From contig CANHRW010000001.1 of the NCBI GenBank assembly GCA_947462865.1, positions 1 through 42,476 of the forward strand: DNA of 42,476 bases. The letters run 5' to 3'. Source of the stretch: Bacteroidota bacterium. GTDB lineage: Bacteria; Bacteroidota; Bacteroidia; UKL13-3. Positions within the stretch are counted from its first letter, which is position 1, and every line of letters begins with the position of its first letter. The position numbers and the translations under genes were made by a program. The notes beneath the pieces are model-generated. The model was not told where the DNA came from, did no database searches, and saw only the letters and a program-made list of their open reading frames with translations. Of this stretch, positions 8,377 through 41,579 are shown in pieces.

Positions 8377-8384
8377 TTTACAAA

Positions 8385-8407
8385 AGCCCCGCAAGGGGCT
8401 TTTTTTT
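8385..8407 (+). terminator. Rho-independent terminator after accC
   Basis: Hairpin AGCCCC-gcaa-GGGGCT followed by a run of 7 T. Confidence 0.8.
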
Positions 8408-8418
8408 AGTACTCAAAG

Positions 8419-8664
8419 ATGGAACTACTCCCTTTATTGTTATTACATCCACCTATTTCAGGTTATTATGCCAAATCAAAGGGTCATTCTTTTTGGTTAT
8501 GGTTTATGATGGGCCTGTTTTTGCCCATCATTTCAAATGTGATTCTTTATTTCATCAAAGACAAACCACTGCCTATTGCTGTTGAAACAGCAACCTTGCA
8601 CGAACAAAAAGACAAAATAATATACCGCAAGCCAGGTTTTGAATACCAAATTAAAAACAGCTAG
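8419..8664 (+). CDS. Small hypothetical membrane protein (81 aa)
   Basis: ATG-initiated ORF right after the accC terminator, with one clear hydrophobic helix (FWLWFMMGLFLPIISNVILYFI). Its stop lies 1 nt before the next ATG. No recognisable family. Coding status is inferred from packing and hydrophobicity only. Confidence 0.4.
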   Translation: MELLPLLLLHPPISGYYAKSKGHSFWLWFMMGLFLPIISNVILYFIKDKPLPIAVETATLHEQKDKIIYRKPGFEYQIKNS

Positions 8665-8665
8665 T

Positions 8666-9226
8666 ATGCGCTTCAACTATCTTTTATGCATGCTGTTTAC
8701 AGGATTTGCCACAATTGCAATGGCACAAAAGCAAATTAGTGCTATACCCTTATACAATTTAAATAACCAGACCCAATACATTCAAGGTGCAGACGAGTTC
8801 AAAGCTACGGTATTGTGGTTTTATTCACCCGATTGTCCGCTATGTCAGCAATACACCCTTGTATTCAAACAGCTTCAGAAAAAATTTGGTAAAGCGGTGC
8901 AATGGTATGCCATATCAACGGATAAAACAGGTTCAAAAGCTGTAAAAAACTTTATAAAAACATACCAATTGAACATGACTTACCTCACGGATAAACACCT
9001 CCAATTGGTTCAATTATTAAAAGCACGAATTACCCCCGAAGTCTTTGTCTTGAATAGCAATTATAAGCTTATTTACAGTGGTAGAATAGACAACTGGGCC
9101 TATGCCCCTGGAAAAACCAGACCCCTTACGAGCATTCATGATTTGGAGATGCAATTGAAAAAATTGATACTAAATCAAAACATTCCATACACCTCTAAAA
9201 CCGCCATTGGATGTTTCATAGAATAA
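8666..9226 (+). CDS. Secreted thioredoxin-fold protein (TlpA/ResA/redoxin-like, CxxC)
   Basis: Signal peptide MRFNYLLCMLFTGFATIAMAQ and thioredoxin motif WFYSPDCPLCQ. The later ITPEVFVLN...IYSGRIDNW region is typical of periplasmic thiol-disulfide oxidoreductases. The track start 8639 is a TTG, so I prefer the ATG at 8666. Confidence 0.8.
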   Translation: MRFNYLLCMLFTGFATIAMAQKQISAIPLYNLNNQTQYIQGADEFKATVLWFYSPDCPLCQQYTLVFKQLQKKFGKAVQWYAISTDKTGSKAVKNFIKTYQLNMTYLTDKHLQLVQLLKARITPEVFVLNSNYKLIYSGRIDNWAYAPGKTRPLTSIHDLEMQLKKLILNQNIPYTSKTAIGCFIE

Positions 9227-10542
9227 ACATATTGCTGATTTGTTGTTTGCTCATATCGGCATGTCAATTAGATACAACGCCCAATTTCTCTGATGACATT
9301 GCTCCTATTGTTCAGCAGAAATGTATCAAGTGTCACCAACAAAATGGTGGAGGTCCTTTTCCTTTAACCAATTACCAAGAAATTGCTTCTAAAGGTCAAT
9401 TGATTGCCTATGTGGTTGAACAAAAAATAATGCCACCTTGGCCTGCTGATCCAGAATATGCCCATTTTACAGGAGAATTGGCGTTATCTGATAAAGAAAT
9501 TGATCAAATTCAAAAATGGGTTACAAGCGGAATGGCCCCTGGAGACAGTAGCCAGCAATTGGAATTACCCCAAAACCAACAAAATAACAACTCCAATTTT
9601 ATCGTTGTAAAACTGCCACAACCATTTTTAATTAAAGGCGATAACAAAGACCACTTTTTTGTAGCCAAATACCCCATTCAAGTACCAGCAAATACATACA
9701 TAGAGGCAATAGAGTTTGTACCACATCAATTAAAATTGGTACACCATATGAACGCACACTTAATTAATTATTCTGAAACACAAGCTATAAACACAACTAC
9801 CGCTCCGTATTGGGTCGACCAAAACCAAGAAGAAAGCCAACGCGTACACAAAGATTTAAAACTGTGCTATGCAAACGGAACATACCCTGAAATGACCCCC
9901 TCTGTCTGCAATTATTTACCAGGTGCGCAATTTTCCAAATACCCTGATGGTATCGGGGGATTTCCCCTTGCTAAAAATGCGGTTTTATACATCAATGACA
10001 TTCATTTTGGACCAAGCCCAATACCTGTTATTGATTCATCTTACTTCAAAATCTACTTAACAAACAAAGCACCTATTAGACCCGTAAGAGAGTTTCAGAT
10101 TGGCACGCTCGGATTAAGCCCAGTAAAGCCCGATTTGAGTATTCCAGCTAATCAGATCAAAACCTTTAAAATTGAATTTACAGTACCCGAAGATATTTCT
10201 ATCTTGAACATTGTTCCACATATGCACTTGATTGGTAAAAAATTCAAATCATATGCCATTAAACCAAGTGGAGATACCGTTCGTTTGATTGCAATCAACC
10301 AATGGGATTTTAGGTGGCAATATTTTTATAGACCTCCTCATTTATTAAAATTGCCTAGAGGTAGCCAAATTTATGTAGAAGCGGTTTATGACAACACTTC
10401 TCAAAACCCAAATAACCCGTTCTCTCCACCTCAATTGATTCGGGATAGAAACGGAAGTATGAGAACTACTGATGAGATGCTCCAACTCATACTCACCTAT
10501 GTTCCATACAAAAAAGGAGATGAAGACTTACCCAATGAGTAA
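9211..10542 (+). CDS. Lipoprotein with an N-terminal CxxCH haem-c motif fused to a copper type II (PHM/DBH-like) monooxygenase core
   Basis: 443 aa. Lipobox-like LLISAC. CIKCH at 9322..9336 with a downstream IMPPWP. Copper-ligand-like motifs are VHHM (9742..9747), IHFG (10003..10005), HMHLIGK (10219..10227) and TDEM (10477..10479). The start overlaps the upstream gene by 16 nt. The ORF itself is very likely coding. The functional call comes from motif matching by eye. Confidence 0.8.
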   Translation: MFHRINILLICCLLISACQLDTTPNFSDDIAPIVQQKCIKCHQQNGGGPFPLTNYQEIASKGQLIAYVVEQKIMPPWPADPEYAHFTGELALSDKEIDQIQKWVTSGMAPGDSSQQLELPQNQQNNNSNFIVVKLPQPFLIKGDNKDHFFVAKYPIQVPANTYIEAIEFVPHQLKLVHHMNAHLINYSETQAINTTTAPYWVDQNQEESQRVHKDLKLCYANGTYPEMTPSVCNYLPGAQFSKYPDGIGGFPLAKNAVLYINDIHFGPSPIPVIDSSYFKIYLTNKAPIRPVREFQIGTLGLSPVKPDLSIPANQIKTFKIEFTVPEDISILNIVPHMHLIGKKFKSYAIKPSGDTVRLIAINQWDFRWQYFYRPPHLLKLPRGSQIYVEAVYDNTSQNPNNPFSPPQLIRDRNGSMRTTDEMLQLILTYVPYKKGDEDLPNE

Positions 10543-10565
10543 GTCTTCATCATTCCGTTATATTT

Positions 10566-10985
10566 TTAGCAAAAAGTATCGAATGCAGCTTGTAAATGAG
10601 CTGAAATCATTTGTGCACTGCGTCCTTCTATCATGTGTCTTTCTACAAAATGTACCAATTCACCATTTTTAAACAACGCAATTGACGGTGAAGATGGAGG
10701 GTATGGCAATGTAAATTCACGTGCTTTGGCTACTGCATCGGATTCTTGTCCTGCAAATACAGTTAACAATTGAGCTGGTTTTTTTACTGACTTTTCAACG
10801 GCTTCAATGACTCCTGGTCTGGCAGTTCCTGCTGCGCAACCACAAACCGAATTGAAAACCAATAATTGAGTACCTTCTTTATTTGAAAAGGCTTGTTCTA
10901 CCTCCGATGGGGTCATCAAAGATTTGAATCCAACATTTTCTAATTGTTGTCTCATAGGAGCAACTAACATTTCTGGATATGCCAT
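10566..10985 (-). CDS. BrxA/BrxB-family bacilliredoxin (DUF1094, YphP/YqiW-like)
   Basis: 139 aa with the family-defining FNSVCGCAAG (CGC) redox motif. Confidence 0.85.
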   Translation of the reverse strand: MAYPEMLVAPMRQQLENVGFKSLMTPSEVEQAFSNKEGTQLLVFNSVCGCAAGTARPGVIEAVEKSVKKPAQLLTVFAGQESDAVAKAREFTLPYPPSSPSIALFKNGELVHFVERHMIEGRSAQMISAHLQAAFDTFC

Positions 10986-25504: not shown

Positions 25505-28150
25505 ATGCTTAAACATGTTTGCCTTATCACGCTAATTGTCATTGCTTTTTCTATGCCTCAAAGTCTTGCACAATTAAGTACTAGGAATGCTGGAGTAACT
25601 TTTAGGTTCGACGATTATCAAAGTCCGGCTAAACTTGAAAAACTGAGAGCTGTATTTAACAAACATGGCAAAAAAATGGTGTATGCTTTAAACAGTCAAT
25701 TGGGCGAATTAAGAGGAGATGCTAACTATTTCTCAACACTAAAGAAAATGGCTGAAGAGGGCCATGAATTGGCCGATCAAAGCCCCAATGATGTAACCCA
25801 ATATATTGGATTTTCTAACAGTTCAGATATTAGTTATTACCAAGGGAAAGCCGGCGTACAATCAGTGAACTTAAGTACTAAAAAAATACTTTTTAAGTAT
25901 TACCTTAAAAACAATAAAGGAGTTGGAGATGAAGGTAAAGTAAGGATAACTCCACAATATTTGATTTCTGAGCAGGCTGGAGAATGGGAGCAAAATAAAA
26001 TATGGAGCAATTATTTTACACATGTTTATTTGCCCAGTTTAAATGAAGTGGTTGAAATAAACTATATCAACAACAGAAATCCACTTGATCCAGATACGCT
26101 TTATTTTAAATCGTTTTGGAGCGAAGAAATTACCTTAAACAGTGTAAGTTCAACCGAATACAAAAAAGTCTCTCCATATGATTTGGGTGTTCACGATGAT
26201 GCCATTCGTTTAATGGCTGAATTGAGCTTAAAAATATTTGCCAAATACCAGCTCCCTCAACCCAAGGTATTTATTCATCCGGGAGGTTCAATCCCATACA
26301 TCAGTGCAGATGTCATTTCAAGAATTTATGGCAATGAATTTCATTACGATTGTGGCAGCACCTACCCACAAATCTTTAATACTTATTTACATGCAAACAG
26401 AAATGGATTCAATCATTTTGCCATACCTGGAGGAGATTTTACAGAGGAATACAAGTCAACCAATGAAATTAAAAAAATTATCAGCGATAACAGAGCAAAC
26501 CATACTCACAGCATCAGTATTAACCACTTAAATACATGGGGCAACGTAGCCCCAATAGACACCATTTGTAAGCGCATCGATGAATTGCTAACCTGGTGTG
26601 AGGCGAATCAAATTCCAGTTAGAACATATCATGAGGTTTACGAAGAATTGTATTTGAAAAATTTAAATCTGAGTGAAAATATATTCCCAAAAACCAACCT
26701 CGATTTGAATGCAGATGGCTCACCAGATGGCGTTATCATGAGGTCTGCTACACACGAGCCAGATGCGGGTGTAGATTCAACCCACCCAGATGCTTTTAAA
26801 TGCACTCAGTCTGCTCAAATGATGATTGTGAAACAACTCGGCGGATTGACAAAAGGATGGAATACATTCAGCATTTATAGCAAGGGTGCTGCAAATGACT
26901 GGGACAATGTGGGCATTTACCTTTCTCTACCAGAAGCAGATTACAGCGTTGTGCTGCCTGTAAACGCCAATTCTATTGATTATGTCAAACACAGCTATCG
27001 GTTTTATGTACCTGACAACGTCTCTTATCTATCTATGTATTTTAATTGTAATAACAGCTCTAAAAGCAGTATTTATATTAGTGGTATGGAAATTAGAGCA
27101 GATGCAAAACCAAGCATTTTGCTAAAAAATATTACCCGTAATGCAAATGAAGTTTTTGCAGTTAAAGATCTCCGTAAAGAAGTGCGAGACCTGAACTTTT
27201 CTCCTGGACTCATTAATTGGAAAATACATAGAAATGCCTTGTACAATAACGCCACTTTGGTTTTTGGGAACCAACTCCGAATTATTCCTAATCAAAAATT
27301 TTGGATTGGCGAGGACAGCATTGTATTGATTGCAAAAAATGCAGCGGGAAATGCCGATACCAGTACCGTATTTATTTACTCTTACCAAGCAAATGGATGT
27401 ATTGGTAAAGCCAACACCATTGCTATCAATCCGTTGGCAAGCGATTCCGCATATGTATGGTATGCTATGCCTGTTGACGATTCTCTTGAATTCAAACAAA
27501 GTCCTGTTATTGTAGTTTATCCAACCCAAAACACCAATTACTTTTTAGATATCTATTCGAGAAACAATGGAGGCATGCTCACACACGAATTGCCCCTGAA
27601 TGTAAACCTGTCAAAACAAATTGGAATAGCCACCAAAGAAATTGCTTTTGGCAAGCAAGACACTTTGGTTCTCACTTATGACGATTTAAATATACCTAGG
27701 TGTTTTAGTCAGTGTCAGTTGAAAAATGTAAACACCAGCCATTCTATAAAAATATACCAATCGGCTAATCAATTAGACAGCGTCGTCATTATTAGAGATA
27801 GTTTATTACGGAACTTCTCTGACTTTACGCTTTCATTGAGTTCTGTTACTTGTGACGATGCCAGTTGGAAAATTATTTTAAATGCGGCTCCAGTTGGCTT
27901 AGCCAATGCAACTACAAATGCGCTTAAACAACCTATTATTGGACCCAATCCTTTTGCTAGGTCTTTGATGGTATTCTCAGCACCAGCGGAATCACAATTT
28001 TACTTGTATGACTTAAATGGGAAATTAATGGGCAAATTTAACAAGACAACACTGGAACAAACAGACTTTTCTGGTTATGAAAACGGATGCTATTTAATGC
28101 AGGTAAAGGCTCAAGACAGTGTGTTTAATTTAAAACTCATTAAGGAATAA
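25505..28150 (+). CDS. Large secreted protein with a T9SS type-A C-terminal sorting domain; N-terminal region weakly polysaccharide-deacetylase-like
   Basis: 881 aa. Signal peptide MLKHVCLITLIVIAFSMPQSLAQ. The C-terminal ~75 aa (GPNPFARSLMVF...FYLYDLNGKLM...GCYLMQVKAQDSVFNLKLIKE) match the T9SS CTD pattern. The N-terminal VTFRFDDY...GHELADQS only loosely resembles NodB motifs. Confidence 0.85.
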   Translation: MLKHVCLITLIVIAFSMPQSLAQLSTRNAGVTFRFDDYQSPAKLEKLRAVFNKHGKKMVYALNSQLGELRGDANYFSTLKKMAEEGHELADQSPNDVTQYIGFSNSSDISYYQGKAGVQSVNLSTKKILFKYYLKNNKGVGDEGKVRITPQYLISEQAGEWEQNKIWSNYFTHVYLPSLNEVVEINYINNRNPLDPDTLYFKSFWSEEITLNSVSSTEYKKVSPYDLGVHDDAIRLMAELSLKIFAKYQLPQPKVFIHPGGSIPYISADVISRIYGNEFHYDCGSTYPQIFNTYLHANRNGFNHFAIPGGDFTEEYKSTNEIKKIISDNRANHTHSISINHLNTWGNVAPIDTICKRIDELLTWCEANQIPVRTYHEVYEELYLKNLNLSENIFPKTNLDLNADGSPDGVIMRSATHEPDAGVDSTHPDAFKCTQSAQMMIVKQLGGLTKGWNTFSIYSKGAANDWDNVGIYLSLPEADYSVVLPVNANSIDYVKHSYRFYVPDNVSYLSMYFNCNNSSKSSIYISGMEIRADAKPSILLKNITRNANEVFAVKDLRKEVRDLNFSPGLINWKIHRNALYNNATLVFGNQLRIIPNQKFWIGEDSIVLIAKNAAGNADTSTVFIYSYQANGCIGKANTIAINPLASDSAYVWYAMPVDDSLEFKQSPVIVVYPTQNTNYFLDIYSRNNGGMLTHELPLNVNLSKQIGIATKEIAFGKQDTLVLTYDDLNIPRCFSQCQLKNVNTSHSIKIYQSANQLDSVVIIRDSLLRNFSDFTLSLSSVTCDDASWKIILNAAPVGLANATTNALKQPIIGPNPFARSLMVFSAPAESQFYLYDLNGKLMGKFNKTTLEQTDFSGYENGCYLMQVKAQDSVFNLKLIKE

Positions 28151-39272: not shown

Positions 39273-41579
39273 TTAATTTTTAACAACTTTTGCAGTATTG
39301 ATTTTACCTAAAGTATCGGCAATTTCTATAAAATAAACGCCTGCGCTTTTTGAAGACAAATCAATTTCTATTCCTTTATTCAGGTTTGCATTCAAAACGG
39401 TGCCTTGTTGTACCAATTGACCTAAATTATTGAACAATTTATAATTGTATGTACCTTCAACACTGTTTAATTGAGTTGAAAGTGTTACCATTTGCTGAAC
39501 AGGATTTGGCATTACAGTCAATTGATTGGTTTTGTTAAATACAGCTGCTAAGTTTTTTAAATATTCAGCATTGCCTTTGTTTACAAAAACAATTTCGAAC
39601 CTGTTTTCACCTTTACTAGCCGCATCTGTATTAATTTCAAATTCAACCATTGGTTTTTCATTTAACAATGAAATTACCCCTAAATAATGGTCAACCAACA
39701 ATAAATCATATTGAGTAAAGTCTTTCTCCCCTTTTACAGTAAAAGTATGTTTACCTGTAAAATTTGAAGTAATTCCTAAGGGAATAGTTACTTGCTCCGA
39801 TACTGAAGGAATAGAATGAATACCATTTCTGTAAGGCTTACTAATGGCGTAAACGTTTAGAGAAGGGTTCATCATTTTTTCAGAATCAAACGCATCTTGT
39901 GCATCTGCAATACCTGGAATTATACCAAATAAAGCTTCATCTTGTAGTTGTCCATGCTTAACCAAAGACAACCTTAAAAATTGGCCTTGATTTTTAAACA
40001 ATTTAGTTGAAGGAGCTGCTGTTGCTTTAACAGATTCAATTGCAGTTAAAACAGGAGAAACTGCATTTGCCTTAACAAAAAACGCGCTGCCCGACTCTAT
40101 TAAATTAGACCCCCCATTGATACCTTGACCTATTGTTACATTGTAATTGGCATAGGCATTTGCCGAAGGGTTAAATATCCAGATAGCAGGATCAATATTG
40201 GTTTTGGTCCAACCTGCAGCATCCCAATTGATAGGTGATGGGTAAGGATTGCCAACCAAGTTCCATCCATTGCCATTAGATGCGTTGTAGGTAACTGGCA
40301 AATTAGTAGAACCAGATTGAATGGTTCCTGTTGCACTTAGAGTCACATCATTTGGAGAAACCACCGAGCCATCTAACAAAGTACAACCTTGCGCTCTATT
40401 GCCTCTTACAAAAACCCTGTAACCAACACCCGAAGTTAAATTGGTGGCATTTGTAGAAGAAATAGCTGTCCATGCATTGTTGTAAACTGTTGCACCTGTA
40501 TTTACAGCAGTTGCTGTATTGTCAACCACTGCAGTAGCTTCATTGAATGTATGCATAGATGGGCTGTTGTTAACAGTAGCATCAAACCCATTTGCATGTG
40601 CAGTTAATGTAGGACAGGCAGTACCACCTGAACCATTTCCGGTAATGTGAATTTGTTGTTGCCAACTCGAATCTATGCGAGCACCTGAATTGAATGGTGC
40701 AGAAAGAAATCTGAACCTTCTTCCGCTCGAGCCTGGAATGTATCTTTCTACAGTAAACTTATTCCCAATAATTCTAGCACTTGCAGGTAATTCTGCTAAT
40801 TGAGCAGTTCCTAAAATTGTTGATCTAAAAATACAATTTCCATAACTAGCCAAAGCAGTTCTTACTTTCAAAGTATTGGTATCTGCAACATTGTACGTTC
40901 CACCTGGGCCAATTACCAATGAGCGCACACCTAAAGAACCTGTATAAGTTCCTGCAAAAATGACTGCATCAGTTGTATCTTGTGGTAAGTTTTTATTCCA
41001 AGTAGTTCCATTCCAGTAATTGGGTGTTTTGCAATTTTTCTGACCTGCTGTTAATGTGTTGTTTGCAATTGGCGTATTGACACTTGCTACATATGCAGAT
41101 ACCAATGAATTTGGTGATGCCCATCTCCAGGTTAAGTTTGGAGCAGCTGTAGTTGAAAAACTAACTGTATTGGTTAAACGCATTCGGATAACTCTTTTAC
41201 CAGCTTGGTCAATTATGGTTCCTGCACCCGCACCCGGAGGAGTCTTAGCAGCAATAATTACATAATTACTGTTATTATAAGATACTGAAGTTGGTACTTG
41301 AGCGGCTAGTAAATCTGACGTTCCTGTAACTACACTGGCAGTAATGGTACCTGCATTTCTGAAGGATGCATTCATGTTCAAATAAAAAGTACCTGTAGAA
41401 TACTCCCATGTGGTTGTAGCTCCAGTAGCATACAATCTCACATCAAACTCATAAGTTGTGGCAGTAGGAAATGTTTCGTTTTCTACACGGCATTCGAACG
41501 ATTGTGCTGAAACAATTGAGTTCATAGCACTCAACACAAGTATCAAAAGTATTAATGATATTTTAGAAAAATTTCTCAT
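39273..41579 (-). CDS. Large secreted protein of unknown function with a T9SS type-A C-terminal sorting domain
   Basis: 768 aa. Signal peptide MRNFSKISLILLILVLSAMNSIVSAQ. The body is rich in Thr/Asn/Ser/Gly and contains the WNLVGNPYPSPINW motif. The C-terminal ~80 aa (VMPNPVQQMVTLS...YKLFNNLGQLV...GVYFIEIADTLGKINTAKVVKN) match the T9SS CTD pattern. Confidence 0.85.
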   Translation of the reverse strand: MRNFSKISLILLILVLSAMNSIVSAQSFECRVENETFPTATTYEFDVRLYATGATTTWEYSTGTFYLNMNASFRNAGTITASVVTGTSDLLAAQVPTSVSYNNSNYVIIAAKTPPGAGAGTIIDQAGKRVIRMRLTNTVSFSTTAAPNLTWRWASPNSLVSAYVASVNTPIANNTLTAGQKNCKTPNYWNGTTWNKNLPQDTTDAVIFAGTYTGSLGVRSLVIGPGGTYNVADTNTLKVRTALASYGNCIFRSTILGTAQLAELPASARIIGNKFTVERYIPGSSGRRFRFLSAPFNSGARIDSSWQQQIHITGNGSGGTACPTLTAHANGFDATVNNSPSMHTFNEATAVVDNTATAVNTGATVYNNAWTAISSTNATNLTSGVGYRVFVRGNRAQGCTLLDGSVVSPNDVTLSATGTIQSGSTNLPVTYNASNGNGWNLVGNPYPSPINWDAAGWTKTNIDPAIWIFNPSANAYANYNVTIGQGINGGSNLIESGSAFFVKANAVSPVLTAIESVKATAAPSTKLFKNQGQFLRLSLVKHGQLQDEALFGIIPGIADAQDAFDSEKMMNPSLNVYAISKPYRNGIHSIPSVSEQVTIPLGITSNFTGKHTFTVKGEKDFTQYDLLLVDHYLGVISLLNEKPMVEFEINTDAASKGENRFEIVFVNKGNAEYLKNLAAVFNKTNQLTVMPNPVQQMVTLSTQLNSVEGTYNYKLFNNLGQLVQQGTVLNANLNKGIEIDLSSKSAGVYFIEIADTLGKINTAKVVKN

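What the first reader, a model, noticed from the sequence alone, without database searches (positions are those of the whole stretch)
9211..10542. Lipoprotein fusing a CxxCH haem-c module to a complete PHM/DBH-type two-copper monooxygenase ligand set
**Seen in the sequence.**
- An N-terminal lipoprotein-like signal (MFHRINILLICCLLISAC).
- CIKCH at 9322..9336, followed about 35 aa later by IMPPWP. A Met-Pro-Pro after CxxCH is the pattern of the planctomycete-type cytochrome c domain, where the Met is the axial ligand.
- Then, in order: VHHM (H178/H179, 9742..9747), IHFG (H265, 10003..10005), HMHLIGK (H337/H339, 10219..10227) and TDEM (M423, 10477..10479).

**Established knowledge.** In peptidylglycine alpha-hydroxylating monooxygenase the CuH site uses H107/H108/H172, in HHM and VHYG contexts. 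The CuM site uses H242/H244/M314, in HTHxLGK and DEMC contexts. All six ligands, their order and their local contexts are mirrored here.

**Inference.**
- Eukaryotic members of this family draw electrons from ascorbate.
- A covalently attached c-type haem could act as a built-in electron donor. That would give an ascorbate-independent, cell-envelope copper monooxygenase.
- No PAL-like lyase partner and no obvious substrate gene is adjacent, so the substrate is open. It could be a peptide C-terminus, an amine or a lipid headgroup.
- I cannot tell from here whether this fusion family has been characterised.
Basis: partly seen in the sequence, partly recalled or inferred. Interest (0 to 1): 0.7.

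Follow-up and report, generated by a model that had tools for sequence, protein, structure and literature searches.

The report
Haem-c-fused bacterial PHM-type copper monooxygenase
A freshwater Bacteroidota gene encodes a membrane-anchored protein that joins a cytochrome c domain to a bacterial version of the two-copper enzyme fold animals use to make amidated neuropeptides and noradrenaline; it belongs to a very large family for which I found no functional study, and it is nearly always paired with a thioredoxin-like gene.

Summary
Window 9211..10542 (+) encodes a 443-aa lipoprotein. It has CIKCH (C38/C41/H42), MPPWP (M74), VHHM (H178/H179), H265, HMH (H337/H339) and M423, all invariant in 28 homologues.

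- **Fold.** The AlphaFold model matches only human DBH and rat PHM at high significance (Foldseek E 4e-13 to 5e-10; next hit 3.5e-5).
- **Ligands.** A profile alignment puts all six residues in register with PHM H107/H108/H172/H242/H244/M314. They stay essentially invariant across 150 distant cluster representatives.
- **Haem domain.** Scanned alone, it passes Pfam's Cytochrom_C cut-off. It is not PSCyt1.
- **Family.** At least 3,000 clusters at 50% identity (E<=1e-10). The 80 genome loci I read are labelled almost entirely Bacteroidota. Sources call it "hypothetical" or "cytochrome c". NCBIfam has no model, and nine literature searches found no functional study.
A thioredoxin-fold CPLC gene (8666..9226) overlaps the start codon by 16 nt. 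It sits directly upstream in 70/80 loci and is fused to the enzyme in a marine lineage. An exported MsrA neighbours the pair in 29/80 loci.
- **PHM itself.** Its peptidylglycine-carboxylate residues are not conserved, so the substrate differs.

Best reading: an ascorbate-independent PHM-type monooxygenase of the cell envelope, fed through its own haem c. The substrate is unknown and the chemistry is untested.

The parts
8666..9226 (+). Thioredoxin-fold partner gene (about 186 aa from the ATG at 8666; the ORF listing starts it at the TTG at 8639). It has a signal peptide and a CPLC active site, and an invariant C-terminal GC. Its last 16 nt overlap the start of the target gene.
   Evidence: - Pfam AhpC-TSA 48.5 bits and Redoxin 40.7 bits, both above cut-off.
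- Best PDB sequence matches are 2cvb and 2ywi, which share the C-terminal AIGCxI.
- Present directly upstream in 70/80 genome loci.
- CPLC in 62/70 and CPLS in 3/70. C57 is 97% conserved and C183 100%.
- A 16-nt overlap with the target start in 50/68 loci.
9211..10542 (+). Target gene: a 443-aa lipoprotein made of a cytochrome c domain followed by a PHM/DBH-like two-domain copper module.
   Evidence: - ORF and translation.
- 3,203 homologues at E<=1e-3.
- AlphaFold model with pLDDT 82.6 and pTM 0.75.
9211..9264 (+). Signal peptide with lipobox (ISAC); C18 is the predicted lipidated cysteine.
   Evidence: The sequence is read directly. C18 is invariant in 28/28 homologues.
9286..9540 (+). Class-I c-type cytochrome domain (about residues 26-110). 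CxxCH lies at 9322..9336. The predicted axial Met74 lies in MPPWP at 9430..9444.
   Evidence: - C38, C41, H42 and M74-P78 are invariant.
- Scanned alone, the domain scores 22.5 bits on PF00034 against a cut-off of 21.3. All 15 members hit Cytochrome_CBB3 and Haem_bd.
- A structure search with the isolated apo-domain model was inconclusive.
9592..10104 (+). N-terminal beta-sandwich of the copper module, equivalent to the CuH domain. Predicted ligands are H178/H179 (9742..9747) and H265 (10003..10005).
   Evidence: - Foldseek matches to DBH 4zel and to PHM.
- hhalign places H178/H179/H265 opposite PHM H107/H108/H172.
- The residues are invariant.
- The distant relative P0202 passes the Pfam PF01082 cut-off, 42 bits against 30.
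10105..10515 (+). C-terminal beta-sandwich of the copper module, equivalent to the CuM domain. Predicted ligands are H337/H339 (10219..10227) and M423 (10477..10479).
   Evidence: - PF03712 scores 19 bits in the window protein, below the cut-off of 23.
- All 28 family members hit PF03712, with a best E-value of 3e-7.
- hhalign places H337/H339/M423 opposite PHM H242/H244/M314.
- The residues are invariant.
8382..8403 (+). Terminator-like hairpin after accC. It marks the upstream boundary of the transcription unit that holds the thioredoxin-like gene and the target gene.
   Evidence: Terminator scan and the sequence itself.
10519..10551 (.). A 15-bp perfect hairpin that spans the stop codon of the target. 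It is followed on the minus strand by a T-run. It is a probable terminator for the convergent bacilliredoxin gene and may work in both directions.
   Evidence: Terminator scan.

Best explanation
The gene encodes a lipid-anchored protein of the cell envelope (exported by its signal peptide). It works as a self-contained PHM/DBH-type two-copper monooxygenase, the 'noncoupled binuclear' kind.

**Proposed mechanism**
1. An N-terminal c-type cytochrome, with His42 and Met74 as predicted axial ligands, takes single electrons from outside the protein.
2. The haem passes them to a His3 copper site (CuH: H178, H179, H265).
3. From there they reach a His2Met site (CuM: H337, H339, M423).
4. At CuM, O2 is activated and a C-H bond of a substrate is hydroxylated.

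The haem replaces the ascorbate (regenerated through cytochrome b561) supply of the animal enzymes.

**The partner protein**
- The enzyme is made together with an exported thioredoxin-fold CxxC protein. That gene overlaps its start codon.
- I read the two as one functional module. The partner most likely acts as an envelope reductant.
- It could feed the two electrons needed per turnover to the haem. It could instead keep the enzyme, or its substrate, in the reduced state.

**The substrate**
- It is not a glycine-extended peptide in the PHM sense, and it is unknown.
- An envelope or secreted peptide or protein is the most likely class.

**Shown here:** the domain architecture, the fold, the in-register and conserved ligand set, the lipobox, the operon partner and the natural fusion.
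**Inferred:** metal and haem occupancy, the direction and source of electron flow, O2-dependent hydroxylation and the substrate class.
For: **Fold**
- The full-length model has pLDDT 82.6.
- Its top 30 PDB matches are only DBH (4zel) and PHM, at E 4e-13 to 5e-10 and target-normalised TM about 0.55-0.65. The next hit is at 3.5e-5.

**Ligands**
- A 244-column hhalign alignment to rat PHMcc aligns HH, H, HxH and M with H107/H108, H172, H242/H244 and M314.
- The PHMcc sequence was verified against 4e4z.
- All six residues are invariant in 28 homologues. They are 122-147 of 123-148 in 150 distant representatives.

**Sequence link to the family**
- All 28 members hit PF03712.
- Relatives found at E about 1e-48 with the copper-domain profile pass Pfam cut-offs. 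P0202 scores 42 bits on PF01082 and 24 bits on PF03712.

**Haem domain**
- CxxCH and MPPWP are invariant.
- PF00034 is above its cut-off when the domain is scanned alone.
- The spacing from CxxCH to MPP is 36 residues in nearly all relatives that have both motifs.

**Partner**
- The thioredoxin-fold gene is directly upstream in 70/80 loci.
- The overlap is exactly 16 nt in 50/68 loci.
- A natural Redoxin + cytochrome c + copper-domain fusion, P0123, is carried by at least 24 contigs. The four places shown come from four different samples, two of them TARA Oceans.
- The same type of Redoxin gene sits next to three such modules in a 62%-GC NRPS locus.
- An exported MsrA, an enzyme that needs a thioredoxin-like reductant, neighbours the pair in 29/80 loci in three different arrangements. 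This supports a reductant role for the partner.
Against: - No experiment exists; haem, copper and activity are all inferred.
- The window protein itself is below Pfam's curated cut-off for PF03712 (19 bits against 23) and has no PF01082 hit.
- Sequence searches against PDB did not find PHM.
- hhalign probability against a single PHM sequence is very low (0.33, E 0.18) although the alignment is in register.
- The Cu-Cu and haem-CuH distances could not be measured, because model coordinates are not exposed.
- The isolated haem-domain model gave no significant structural match.
- Electron transfer from a thiol to a haem c would be unusual.
- The CP-x-C motif is also typical of oxidising Dsb proteins (my own knowledge).
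- About 10 of the 80 loci lack the partner, so it is not obligatory.
- No substrate gene is conserved nearby.
Confidence: 0.6

Rival explanations
1. Thiol oxidase or electron-sink reading. The thioredoxin-fold CPLC protein is an oxidising, Dsb-like protein or a redox buffer. The cytochrome c-copper protein re-oxidises it. Electrons go from the dithiol through haem and copper to O2, or out through the haem to the respiratory chain. No organic substrate is hydroxylated.
For: - The two genes are tightly coupled and sometimes fused.
- CP-x-C resembles the DsbA, DsbG and DsbL active sites rather than the WCxPC of ResA or TlpA (sequence; the comparison is from my own knowledge).
- A dithiol supplies exactly two electrons, and no substrate gene is conserved nearby.
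Against: - The complete CuH/CuM ligand set, including the Met that is specific to substrate-hydroxylating PHM-type sites, is invariant over a very wide family.
- Members without any thioredoxin-like neighbour exist.
- Some partners carry CxxS, which cannot form the usual active-site disulfide.
- The MsrA neighbourhood points to a reductant, not an oxidant.
Confidence: 0.15
2. Oxidative-stress defence reading. The module is a haem/copper peroxidase or peroxygenase of the envelope. It consumes H2O2 or O2-derived oxidants with electrons from the thioredoxin-like protein, and it works alongside exported MsrA.
For: - MsrA adjacency in 29/80 loci.
- The partner has AhpC/TSA-Redoxin family hits.
- A bacilliredoxin gene lies next to the pair in the window.
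- PHM itself can run on H2O2 through a peroxide shunt (my own knowledge of the PHM literature).
Against: - The bacilliredoxin neighbour is conserved only in close relatives, 22/80 loci.
- MsrA is absent from the whole 42-kb window.
Confidence: 0.12
3. Non-catalytic reading. The protein is simply a membrane-anchored respiratory cytochrome c. Its C-terminal beta-sandwiches are a copper-binding, chaperone or scaffold module without oxygenase chemistry.
For: - Source annotations call it 'cytochrome c'.
- The sequence similarity to the PHM Pfam models is weak.
Against: - Near-absolute conservation of all six catalytic-type ligands over thousands of clusters.
- A rare paralogue that has lost them (P0267) shows the ligands are otherwise under selection.
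- The family is diverse in architecture, with secreted forms, tandem forms and forms embedded in a biosynthetic cluster.
Confidence: 0.06

Closest known systems
Peptidylglycine alpha-hydroxylating monooxygenase (PHM, catalytic core of PAM; PDB 1PHM/1OPM/1SDW)
   Same: - The two-beta-sandwich fold (Foldseek E about 1e-12, target-normalised TM about 0.6).
- CuH (HH...H) and CuM (HxH...M) ligands in the same order and in register, with similar local contexts: VHHM, HxG, HxHxxGK, DEM.
   Different: - It is bacterial and lipid-anchored, and has an N-terminal haem-c domain.
- None of PHM's cysteines is matched by a conserved Cys, so PHM's disulfide pattern (five disulfides, from my own knowledge) cannot be kept.
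- There is an insertion of about 22 residues between the HH pair and the third His. It contains a helix and two His residues that are invariant only in the closest subfamily (H183, H213).
- The carboxylate-binding residues R240/Y318 are replaced by V335/I427, and N316 by Q425.
- No PAL-like lyase partner is present.
- Sequence identity is only about 15%.
Dopamine beta-hydroxylase / tyramine beta-monooxygenase (PDB 4ZEL)
   Same: It is the best structural match (E 4e-13). It has the same catalytic core and ligand set.
   Different: - The window protein has no DOMON domain and no C-terminal dimerisation domain.
- The animal enzymes use ascorbate. Here a covalent haem c is fused in place of the DOMON-position N-terminal domain.
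Built-in or partner cytochrome domains that feed copper oxygenases (for example the cytochrome domain of cellobiose dehydrogenase reducing LPMOs; cytochrome b561 regenerating ascorbate for PHM/DBH)
   Same: The logic is the same: a one-electron haem carrier delivers electrons to a mononuclear copper oxygen-activating site. This comparison rests on my own knowledge.
   Different: Here the haem is c-type and sits on the same polypeptide as a PHM-type enzyme. I found no described example of that combination.
Envelope thioredoxin-fold proteins coupled or fused to the enzyme they serve (Neisseria PilB Trx-MsrA-MsrB; TlpA/ResA/CcmG; the structural-genomics proteins 2CVB and 2YWI)
   Same: - An exported thioredoxin-fold protein with a CxxC motif.
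- A genetic fusion to its client enzyme in some lineages.
- MsrA in the neighbourhood.
- The closest solved relatives, 2cvb and 2ywi, share the C-terminal AIGCxI motif.
   Different: - The client is a haem-copper protein.
- The motif is CPLC, sometimes CPxS, plus an invariant C-terminal Cys.
- The function of the 2cvb/2ywi group is itself unknown.

Membership tests
PHM/DBH copper type II monooxygenase superfamily | Two tandem beta-sandwich domains with the PHM catalytic-core fold | tested here: met
   The AlphaFold model has pLDDT 82.6. Its top 30 Foldseek PDB hits are exclusively DBH and PHM, at E 4e-13 to 5e-10 and probability 1.00.
PHM/DBH copper type II monooxygenase superfamily | CuH site: three His (HH pair plus a distal His) | tested here: met
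   H178/H179/H265 align with PHM H107/H108/H172. They are invariant in 28 homologues and in 122-140 of 123-141 aligned representatives.
PHM/DBH copper type II monooxygenase superfamily | CuM site: HxH plus a Met | tested here: met
   H337/H339/M423 align with PHM H242/H244/M314. They are invariant and hold in 145-147 of 146-148 representatives.
PHM/DBH copper type II monooxygenase superfamily | Scores above Pfam's curated cut-offs for PF01082 and PF03712 | tested here: inconclusive
   - Window protein: PF03712 scores 19 bits against a cut-off of 23, and PF01082 gives no hit.
- All 28 family members hit PF03712, with a best E-value of 3e-7.
- The homologue P0202, found at E about 1e-48, scores 42 bits on PF01082 (cut-off 30) and 24.1 bits on PF03712 (cut-off 23).
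PHM/DBH copper type II monooxygenase superfamily | Two copper ions about 11 A apart across a solvent cleft; O2-dependent hydroxylation | not testable with these tools
   Model coordinates are not exposed to the scripting tool. No biochemistry is available.
PHM sensu stricto (EC 1.14.17.3) | Residues that bind the peptidylglycine carboxylate and backbone: R240, Y318, N316 (identities from my own knowledge of the PHM-substrate structure) | tested here: not met
   In the hhalign alignment these positions are V335, I427 and Q425. I427 and Q425 are invariant in the family and V335 is at least 90% conserved.
PHM sensu stricto (EC 1.14.17.3) | Conserved disulfide framework and a PAL lyase partner | tested here: not met
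   No conserved Cys lies in the copper module. No lyase-like gene lies in the window neighbourhood or among the recurrent neighbours.
Class I c-type cytochrome domain | CxxCH haem-attachment motif with a distal Met ligand | tested here: met
   C38, C41, H42 and M74 are invariant. The spacing is 36 residues in nearly all relatives that have both motifs.
Class I c-type cytochrome domain | Pfam Cytochrom_C score above the curated cut-off | tested here: met
   The domain alone scores 22.5 bits against 21.3 and covers profile positions 7-88 of 90. In the full-length scan it scores 19.2 bits, below the cut-off.
Class I c-type cytochrome domain | Cytochrome c fold | tested here: inconclusive
   The isolated apo-domain model has pLDDT 80.7, but only one of the five models is confident. 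Foldseek gave no significant hit; cytochrome c555 ranks 5th at E 0.83.
Planctomycete cytochrome c domain PSCyt1 (PF07635) | A match to the PF07635 profile | tested here: not met
   There is no PF07635 hit in any of the 28 full-length members at E<=0.1 or in the 15 isolated domains at E<=10.
Bacterial lipoprotein | Signal peptide ending in a lipobox with an invariant Cys | tested here: met
   LISAC, with C18 invariant in 28/28. Which membrane it is anchored in, and whether it faces the periplasm or the cell surface, was not determined.
TlpA/ResA/AhpC-TSA-type thioredoxin fold (the partner gene) | Thioredoxin fold with a CxxC motif, and export | tested here: met
   - PF00578 scores 48.5 bits against a cut-off of 26.
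- CPLC is present in 62/70 loci.
- The N-terminal signal-like segment is read directly from the sequence.
- Whether it acts as a reductant or an oxidant was not tested.

The most novel reading that the evidence does not exclude
The thioredoxin-fold protein, the haem c and the CuH/CuM core form a three-part, ascorbate-independent PHM-type monooxygenase system. Reducing power comes from envelope thiols or from the respiratory chain. It is metered one electron at a time through the haem into the copper sites, which hydroxylate envelope or secreted peptides or proteins. [quoted passage not shown] This widespread bacterial system would represent the prokaryotic form of the enzyme family that animals use for neuropeptide amidation and catecholamine synthesis.
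Probability: 0.3. Interest if true: 0.85.

Novelty: new variant of a known kind. Interest (0 to 1): 0.66.

Why it matters
- PHM, DBH and TBM are textbook copper enzymes, studied almost only in animals. A 2025 review from that field lists only PHM, DBM, TBM and the plant BURP cyclases as relatives.
- Here the same two-copper ligand set sits in a very large bacterial family: at least 3,000 clusters at 50% identity with E<=1e-10.
- The loci come largely from lake, pond and ocean metagenome-assembled genomes labelled Bacteroidota, with one related locus at 62% GC.
- The enzyme is hard-wired to a c-type haem, and usually also to a thioredoxin-like protein.
- If active, it would show how this chemistry runs without ascorbate.
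- It would also offer a tractable bacterial model of long-range CuH-to-CuM electron transfer, with a built-in and spectroscopically visible electron donor.
- It would open a search for hydroxylated or amidated peptides, proteins or other envelope molecules in Bacteroidota. [quoted passage not shown]
- It also bears on where the eukaryotic enzymes came from.

Tried and rejected
1. **Sequence searches against PDB.** Neither the protein nor the 28-sequence profile found PHM or DBH. Homology had to be shown by fold, by family-wide Pfam hits and by transitive links.
2. **hhalign against one PHM sequence.** It gave an in-register alignment, but at probability 0.33 and E 0.18. I use it only for residue correspondence, not as proof of homology.
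3. **Metal-site geometry.** I tried to read the model coordinates to measure Cu-site and haem-site distances. Only FASTA files are exposed.
4. **PSCyt1 assignment.** Rejected.
5. **Separate model of the haem domain.** A model plus PDB fold search gave no significant hit. This is probably because the model has no haem.
6. **Substrate gene by neighbourhood clustering.** In 55 loci that lack the window's accC, bacilliredoxin and AhcY neighbours, only the thioredoxin-like gene and MsrA recur. The other recurrent neighbours are L21, an SDR, a STAS-like protein and a ClpC-like protein, which I read as inherited housekeeping synteny.
7. **accBC, bacilliredoxin and AhcY neighbours of the window.** They are conserved only among close relatives, in 18-22 of 80 loci. 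I treat them as synteny, not as function.
8. **Naming the wider relatives.** Cluster look-ups returned only 'hypothetical protein'.
9. **Literature.** Nine full-text searches and one review found no functional study. Papers in subscription journals are not covered.
10. **Assembly artefact behind the Redoxin fusion.** Rejected. P0123 is carried by at least 24 contigs, and the four places shown come from four different samples.
Full report
**1. The observation**

The ORF listing and translate confirm a 443-aa ORF at 9211..10542 on the + strand.
- MFHRINILLICCLLISAC, a signal peptide ending in a lipobox Cys18
- CIKCH (C38/C41/H42, 9322..9336)
- IMPPWP (M74)
- VHHM (H178/H179)
- IHFG (H265)
- HMHLIGK (H337/H339)
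- TDEM (M423)

In an alignment of 28 homologues at 49-71% identity, all of these residues and C18 are invariant.

**2. What the C-terminal three quarters are**

Sequence evidence for the window protein alone is weak.
- Pfam Cu2_monoox_C scores 19 bits against a cut-off of 23, and Cu2_monooxygen gives no hit.
- NCBIfam has no family for it.
- Neither the protein nor a family profile finds PHM in PDB by sequence.

The family view is clearer.
- All 28 members hit PF03712, with a best E-value of 3e-7.
- A profile of the copper module finds 5,509 representatives of 50%-identity clusters at E<=1e-3, 3,002 at E<=1e-10 and 430 at E<=1e-30.
- Among these, P0202 (found at E about 1e-48) passes Pfam's cut-offs for both PHM domains: 42 bits on PF01082 and 24.1 bits on PF03712. 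It also carries a Cytochrome_CBB3-type hit.

Structure settles the point.
- The AlphaFold2 model has mean pLDDT 82.6 and pTM 0.75.
- Its only strong PDB matches are human dopamine beta-hydroxylase (4zel, E 4e-13) and about 28 rat PHM entries (E 8e-13 to 5e-10, target-normalised TM 0.55-0.65).
- The next hit is a viral capsid protein at 3.5e-5.

I checked my recalled rat PHMcc sequence against PDB; it is identical to 4e4z_A. I then aligned it to the family profile with hhalign.
- The statistics are poor with a single-sequence template (probability 0.33, E 0.18).
- The 244-column alignment nevertheless places H178/H179 on H107/H108, H265 on H172, H337/H339 on H242/H244 and M423 on M314.

In the 150 best representatives the six positions hold wherever aligned: H 123/123, H 122/123, H 140/141, H 147/147, H 147/148, M 145/146. 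One outlier, P0267, has lost several of them. Such conservation across a family this wide argues for a working two-copper site rather than a relic.

**3. What the N-terminal quarter is**

- CxxCH and MPPWP are invariant.
- In the wider family CxxCH is present in 110/150 representatives. Most of the rest are under 400 aa with the N-terminal part missing.
- Where both motifs occur, MPP nearly always starts 36 residues after the first Cys.
- Scanned alone, the window domain scores 22.5 bits on Pfam Cytochrom_C (cut-off 21.3) over profile positions 7-88 of 90.
- All 15 domains tested hit Cytochrome_CBB3 and Haem_bd, 12 hit PccH, and none hits PSCyt1.
- A profile search of PDB returns almost only c-type cytochromes around the CxxCH (CcoP, the haem domain of hydrazine synthase alpha, PccH, mitochondrial cytochrome c), at non-significant E-values.
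- A separate model of the domain has pLDDT 80.7, with only one of five models confident. It found no significant structural neighbour. I count that test as inconclusive; haem-free models of cytochromes often pack poorly.

Conclusion: this is a monohaem class-I-like cytochrome c domain with predicted His/Met ligation. It is not the planctomycete PSCyt1 family by profile.

**4. Context in the window**

- The window is an ordinary low-GC (37%) Bacteroidota chromosome segment.
- It carries pdxA, plsX, fabH, accB, accC, ahcY, pdxJ, purA, fur, relA/spoT, tig, clpP, clpX and serS, plus two proteins with type IX secretion tails.
- Its closest genome match is a metagenome-assembled 'uncultured Bacteroidetes bacterium' (91% identity).
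- A terminator-like hairpin follows accC at 8382..8403.
- Next comes a small 81-aa ORF.
- Next comes a thioredoxin-fold gene (probable start 8666) whose last 16 nt overlap the target's ATG.
- A 15-bp hairpin spans the target's stop codon.
- A BrxA/B bacilliredoxin gene converges from downstream.

**5.

What the upstream protein is:
- It is exported and has an AhpC-TSA/Redoxin-type fold (48.5 and 40.7 bits) with a CPLC motif.
- Its best solved relatives are the structural-genomics proteins 2cvb and 2ywi, which share its C-terminal AIGCxI motif.

How tightly it is linked to the target:
- Among 80 genome loci that encode homologues of the target, a homologue of this protein sits directly upstream in 70.
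- The 16-nt overlap is exact in 50 of 68 loci.
- The motif is CPLC in 62/70 and CPLS in 3/70.
- The first Cys is 97% conserved and the C-terminal Cys 100%.
- In a marine lineage the two genes are fused into one 627-aa protein, P0123 (Redoxin + CxxCH domain + copper module). Its thioredoxin motif reads CPIS.
- P0123 is carried by at least 24 contigs. The four places shown come from four different samples, two of them TARA Oceans.
- In a 62%-GC locus, a Redoxin gene of the same type (CPVS, GRIDD, C-terminal GC) precedes three cytochrome c-copper modules inside an NRPS cluster.

This is classic fusion-plus-synteny evidence that the two proteins work together. It is not obligatory: some divergent loci lack the partner.

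**6. Other neighbours**

I clustered the neighbours in the 55 loci that lack the window's accC, bacilliredoxin and AhcY neighbours. Only one other partner recurs.
- It is an exported, lipoprotein-type MsrA (PF01625, E 1e-65), present in 29/80 loci.
- It is usually divergent from the thioredoxin-like gene.
- Once it lies downstream (L034).
- Once it lies directly upstream on the same strand, in place of the thioredoxin-like gene (L060).
- It is absent from the window.

MsrA needs a thioredoxin-type reductant. This tilts the partner towards a reductant role and places the module in envelope thiol and methionine redox maintenance. No substrate-encoding or lyase-like gene is conserved.

**7. Architectural diversity**

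- Many relatives of about 510-535 aa add a C-terminal type IX secretion sorting domain.
- Others add PKD/Ig, Kunitz or EF-hand-like repeats, or duplicate the whole module.

So there are anchored forms, secreted or cell-surface forms, and forms embedded in a biosynthetic cluster.

**8. Mechanism proposed**

- Shown: the architecture, the fold, the ligands, the lipobox, and the operon or fusion with a thioredoxin-fold protein.
- Inferred from established PHM/DBH chemistry: CuH accepts electrons one at a time and passes them to CuM. There O2 is activated and abstracts a hydrogen atom from the substrate. Two electrons are needed per turnover.
- Inferred here: the fused haem c is the entry point that replaces ascorbate. 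Its donor is either the respiratory chain (c-type cytochromes or alternative complex III) or the thioredoxin-like dithiol, which conveniently holds two electrons.

The substrate is unknown. PHM's carboxylate-binding R240 and Y318 align to V335 and I427, and N316 aligns to Q425 (I427 and Q425 invariant, V335 at least 90% conserved). A glycine-extended peptide bound in the PHM manner is therefore unlikely. I give about 0.9 to the structural identity and about 0.6 to the full functional statement.

**9. Rivals**

- (a) A thiol oxidase or electron sink that re-oxidises the CP-x-C protein (0.15).
- (b) A peroxide-consuming defence enzyme that works with MsrA (0.12).
- (c) A respiratory cytochrome c with a non-catalytic copper-binding module (0.06).

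The evidence for and against each is given in the Rival explanations section.

**10. Comparison and novelty**

- The protein works like PHM or DBH in its ligand set and fold, and it belongs to that superfamily.
- It fails the tests for PHM proper: substrate residues, conserved cysteines and a lyase partner.
- It differs from all characterised members in having a covalent haem-c domain, a lipid anchor and a thioredoxin-fold partner.
- Sources name the family 'hypothetical protein', 'cytochrome c' or 'mono/diheme cytochrome c family protein'.
- NCBIfam has no model.
- Nine full-text searches found nothing on bacterial cytochrome c-PHM fusions. A 2025 review of the field lists only PHM, DBM, TBM and the plant BURP cyclases.
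- The paper library omits most subscription journals, so a prior functional study cannot be excluded.

I rate it a new variant of a known kind, with interest 0.66. A specialist in copper enzymes would be surprised by the size of the family and by its fixed link to a haem c and, usually, a thioredoxin-like protein. Function remains untested.

**11. Limits**

- Metal-site geometry could not be measured because no coordinates are accessible.
- The taxonomic breadth beyond Bacteroidota rests on one high-GC locus.
- The direction of electron flow and the role of the partner are inferences.

Noticed in passing
L012:4623-5303 (-), L060:5262-5888 (+), L034:7416-7934 (-), and 26 further loci: An exported, lipoprotein-type MsrA (PF01625, GCFWC motif) lies next to the thioredoxin-like + cytochrome c-copper pair in 29/80 genome loci, in three different arrangements. 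It is absent from the window.
   Followed up: partly
L081:5001-6884 (protein P0123): A natural 627-aa fusion of Redoxin, cytochrome c and the copper module, carried by at least 24 contigs. The four places shown come from four samples, two of them TARA Oceans. Its thioredoxin motif is the monothiol CPIS.
   Followed up: partly
L086:4582-10195: In a 62%-GC contig, a Redoxin gene (CPVS) is followed by three cytochrome c-copper modules: a 584-aa protein and the tandem 1064-aa P0152, both with EF-hand-like repeats. They sit between NRPS genes (condensation, adenylation, thiolation, sulfotransferase and thioesterase domains). This hints at peptide natural-product tailoring.
   Followed up: partly
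proteins P0151, P0164, P0169, P0218, P0220 (relatives, not in the window): Many relatives of about 510-660 aa carry a C-terminal type IX secretion sorting domain, some with PKD/Ig domains. This implies haem-copper enzymes that are secreted or displayed on the cell surface.
   Followed up: no
window 9757..9759 (H183) and 9847..9849 (H213): Two extra histidines are invariant in the 28 close homologues but are not conserved in the wider family. They lie just after the HH pair (H183) and in the subfamily-specific helix between it and H265 (H213). Their role is unknown.
   Followed up: partly
window 9211..9226: The start codon of the target sits inside the Gly-Cys codons (GGATGT) of the partner's conserved C-terminal GCFIE. 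The same 16-nt overlap occurs in 50/68 loci. The two reading frames therefore constrain each other here.
   Followed up: yes
window 8419..8664 (+): A small 81-aa hydrophobic ORF lies between the accC terminator and the thioredoxin-like gene. It has no Pfam hit and is detectable in only 8 closely related loci.
   Followed up: partly
window 10566..10985 (-) and 10519..10551: A BrxA/B bacilliredoxin gene (PF06491, 199 bits) converges on the target. A 15-bp perfect hairpin spans the target's stop codon. The bacilliredoxin neighbour is kept only in near relatives, 22/80 loci.
   Followed up: partly
protein P0267 (relative, not in the window): A family member that keeps CxxCH and MPP but has lost several copper ligands (HRDLLHHV at the eight positions checked). 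It looks like a degenerate paralogue.
   Followed up: no
window 25505..28150 (+) and 39273..41579 (-): Two large proteins have C-terminal Por_Secre_tail domains and no other Pfam hit. They are type IX secretion substrates of unknown function.
   Followed up: no
L003, L051, L056 (record titles): Some MAG records that carry this gene family are titled Vulcanococcus limneticus or Bifidobacteriaceae. L003 shares the accC/bacilliredoxin/AhcY synteny with the window. The titles look like mislabelled bins.
   Followed up: no
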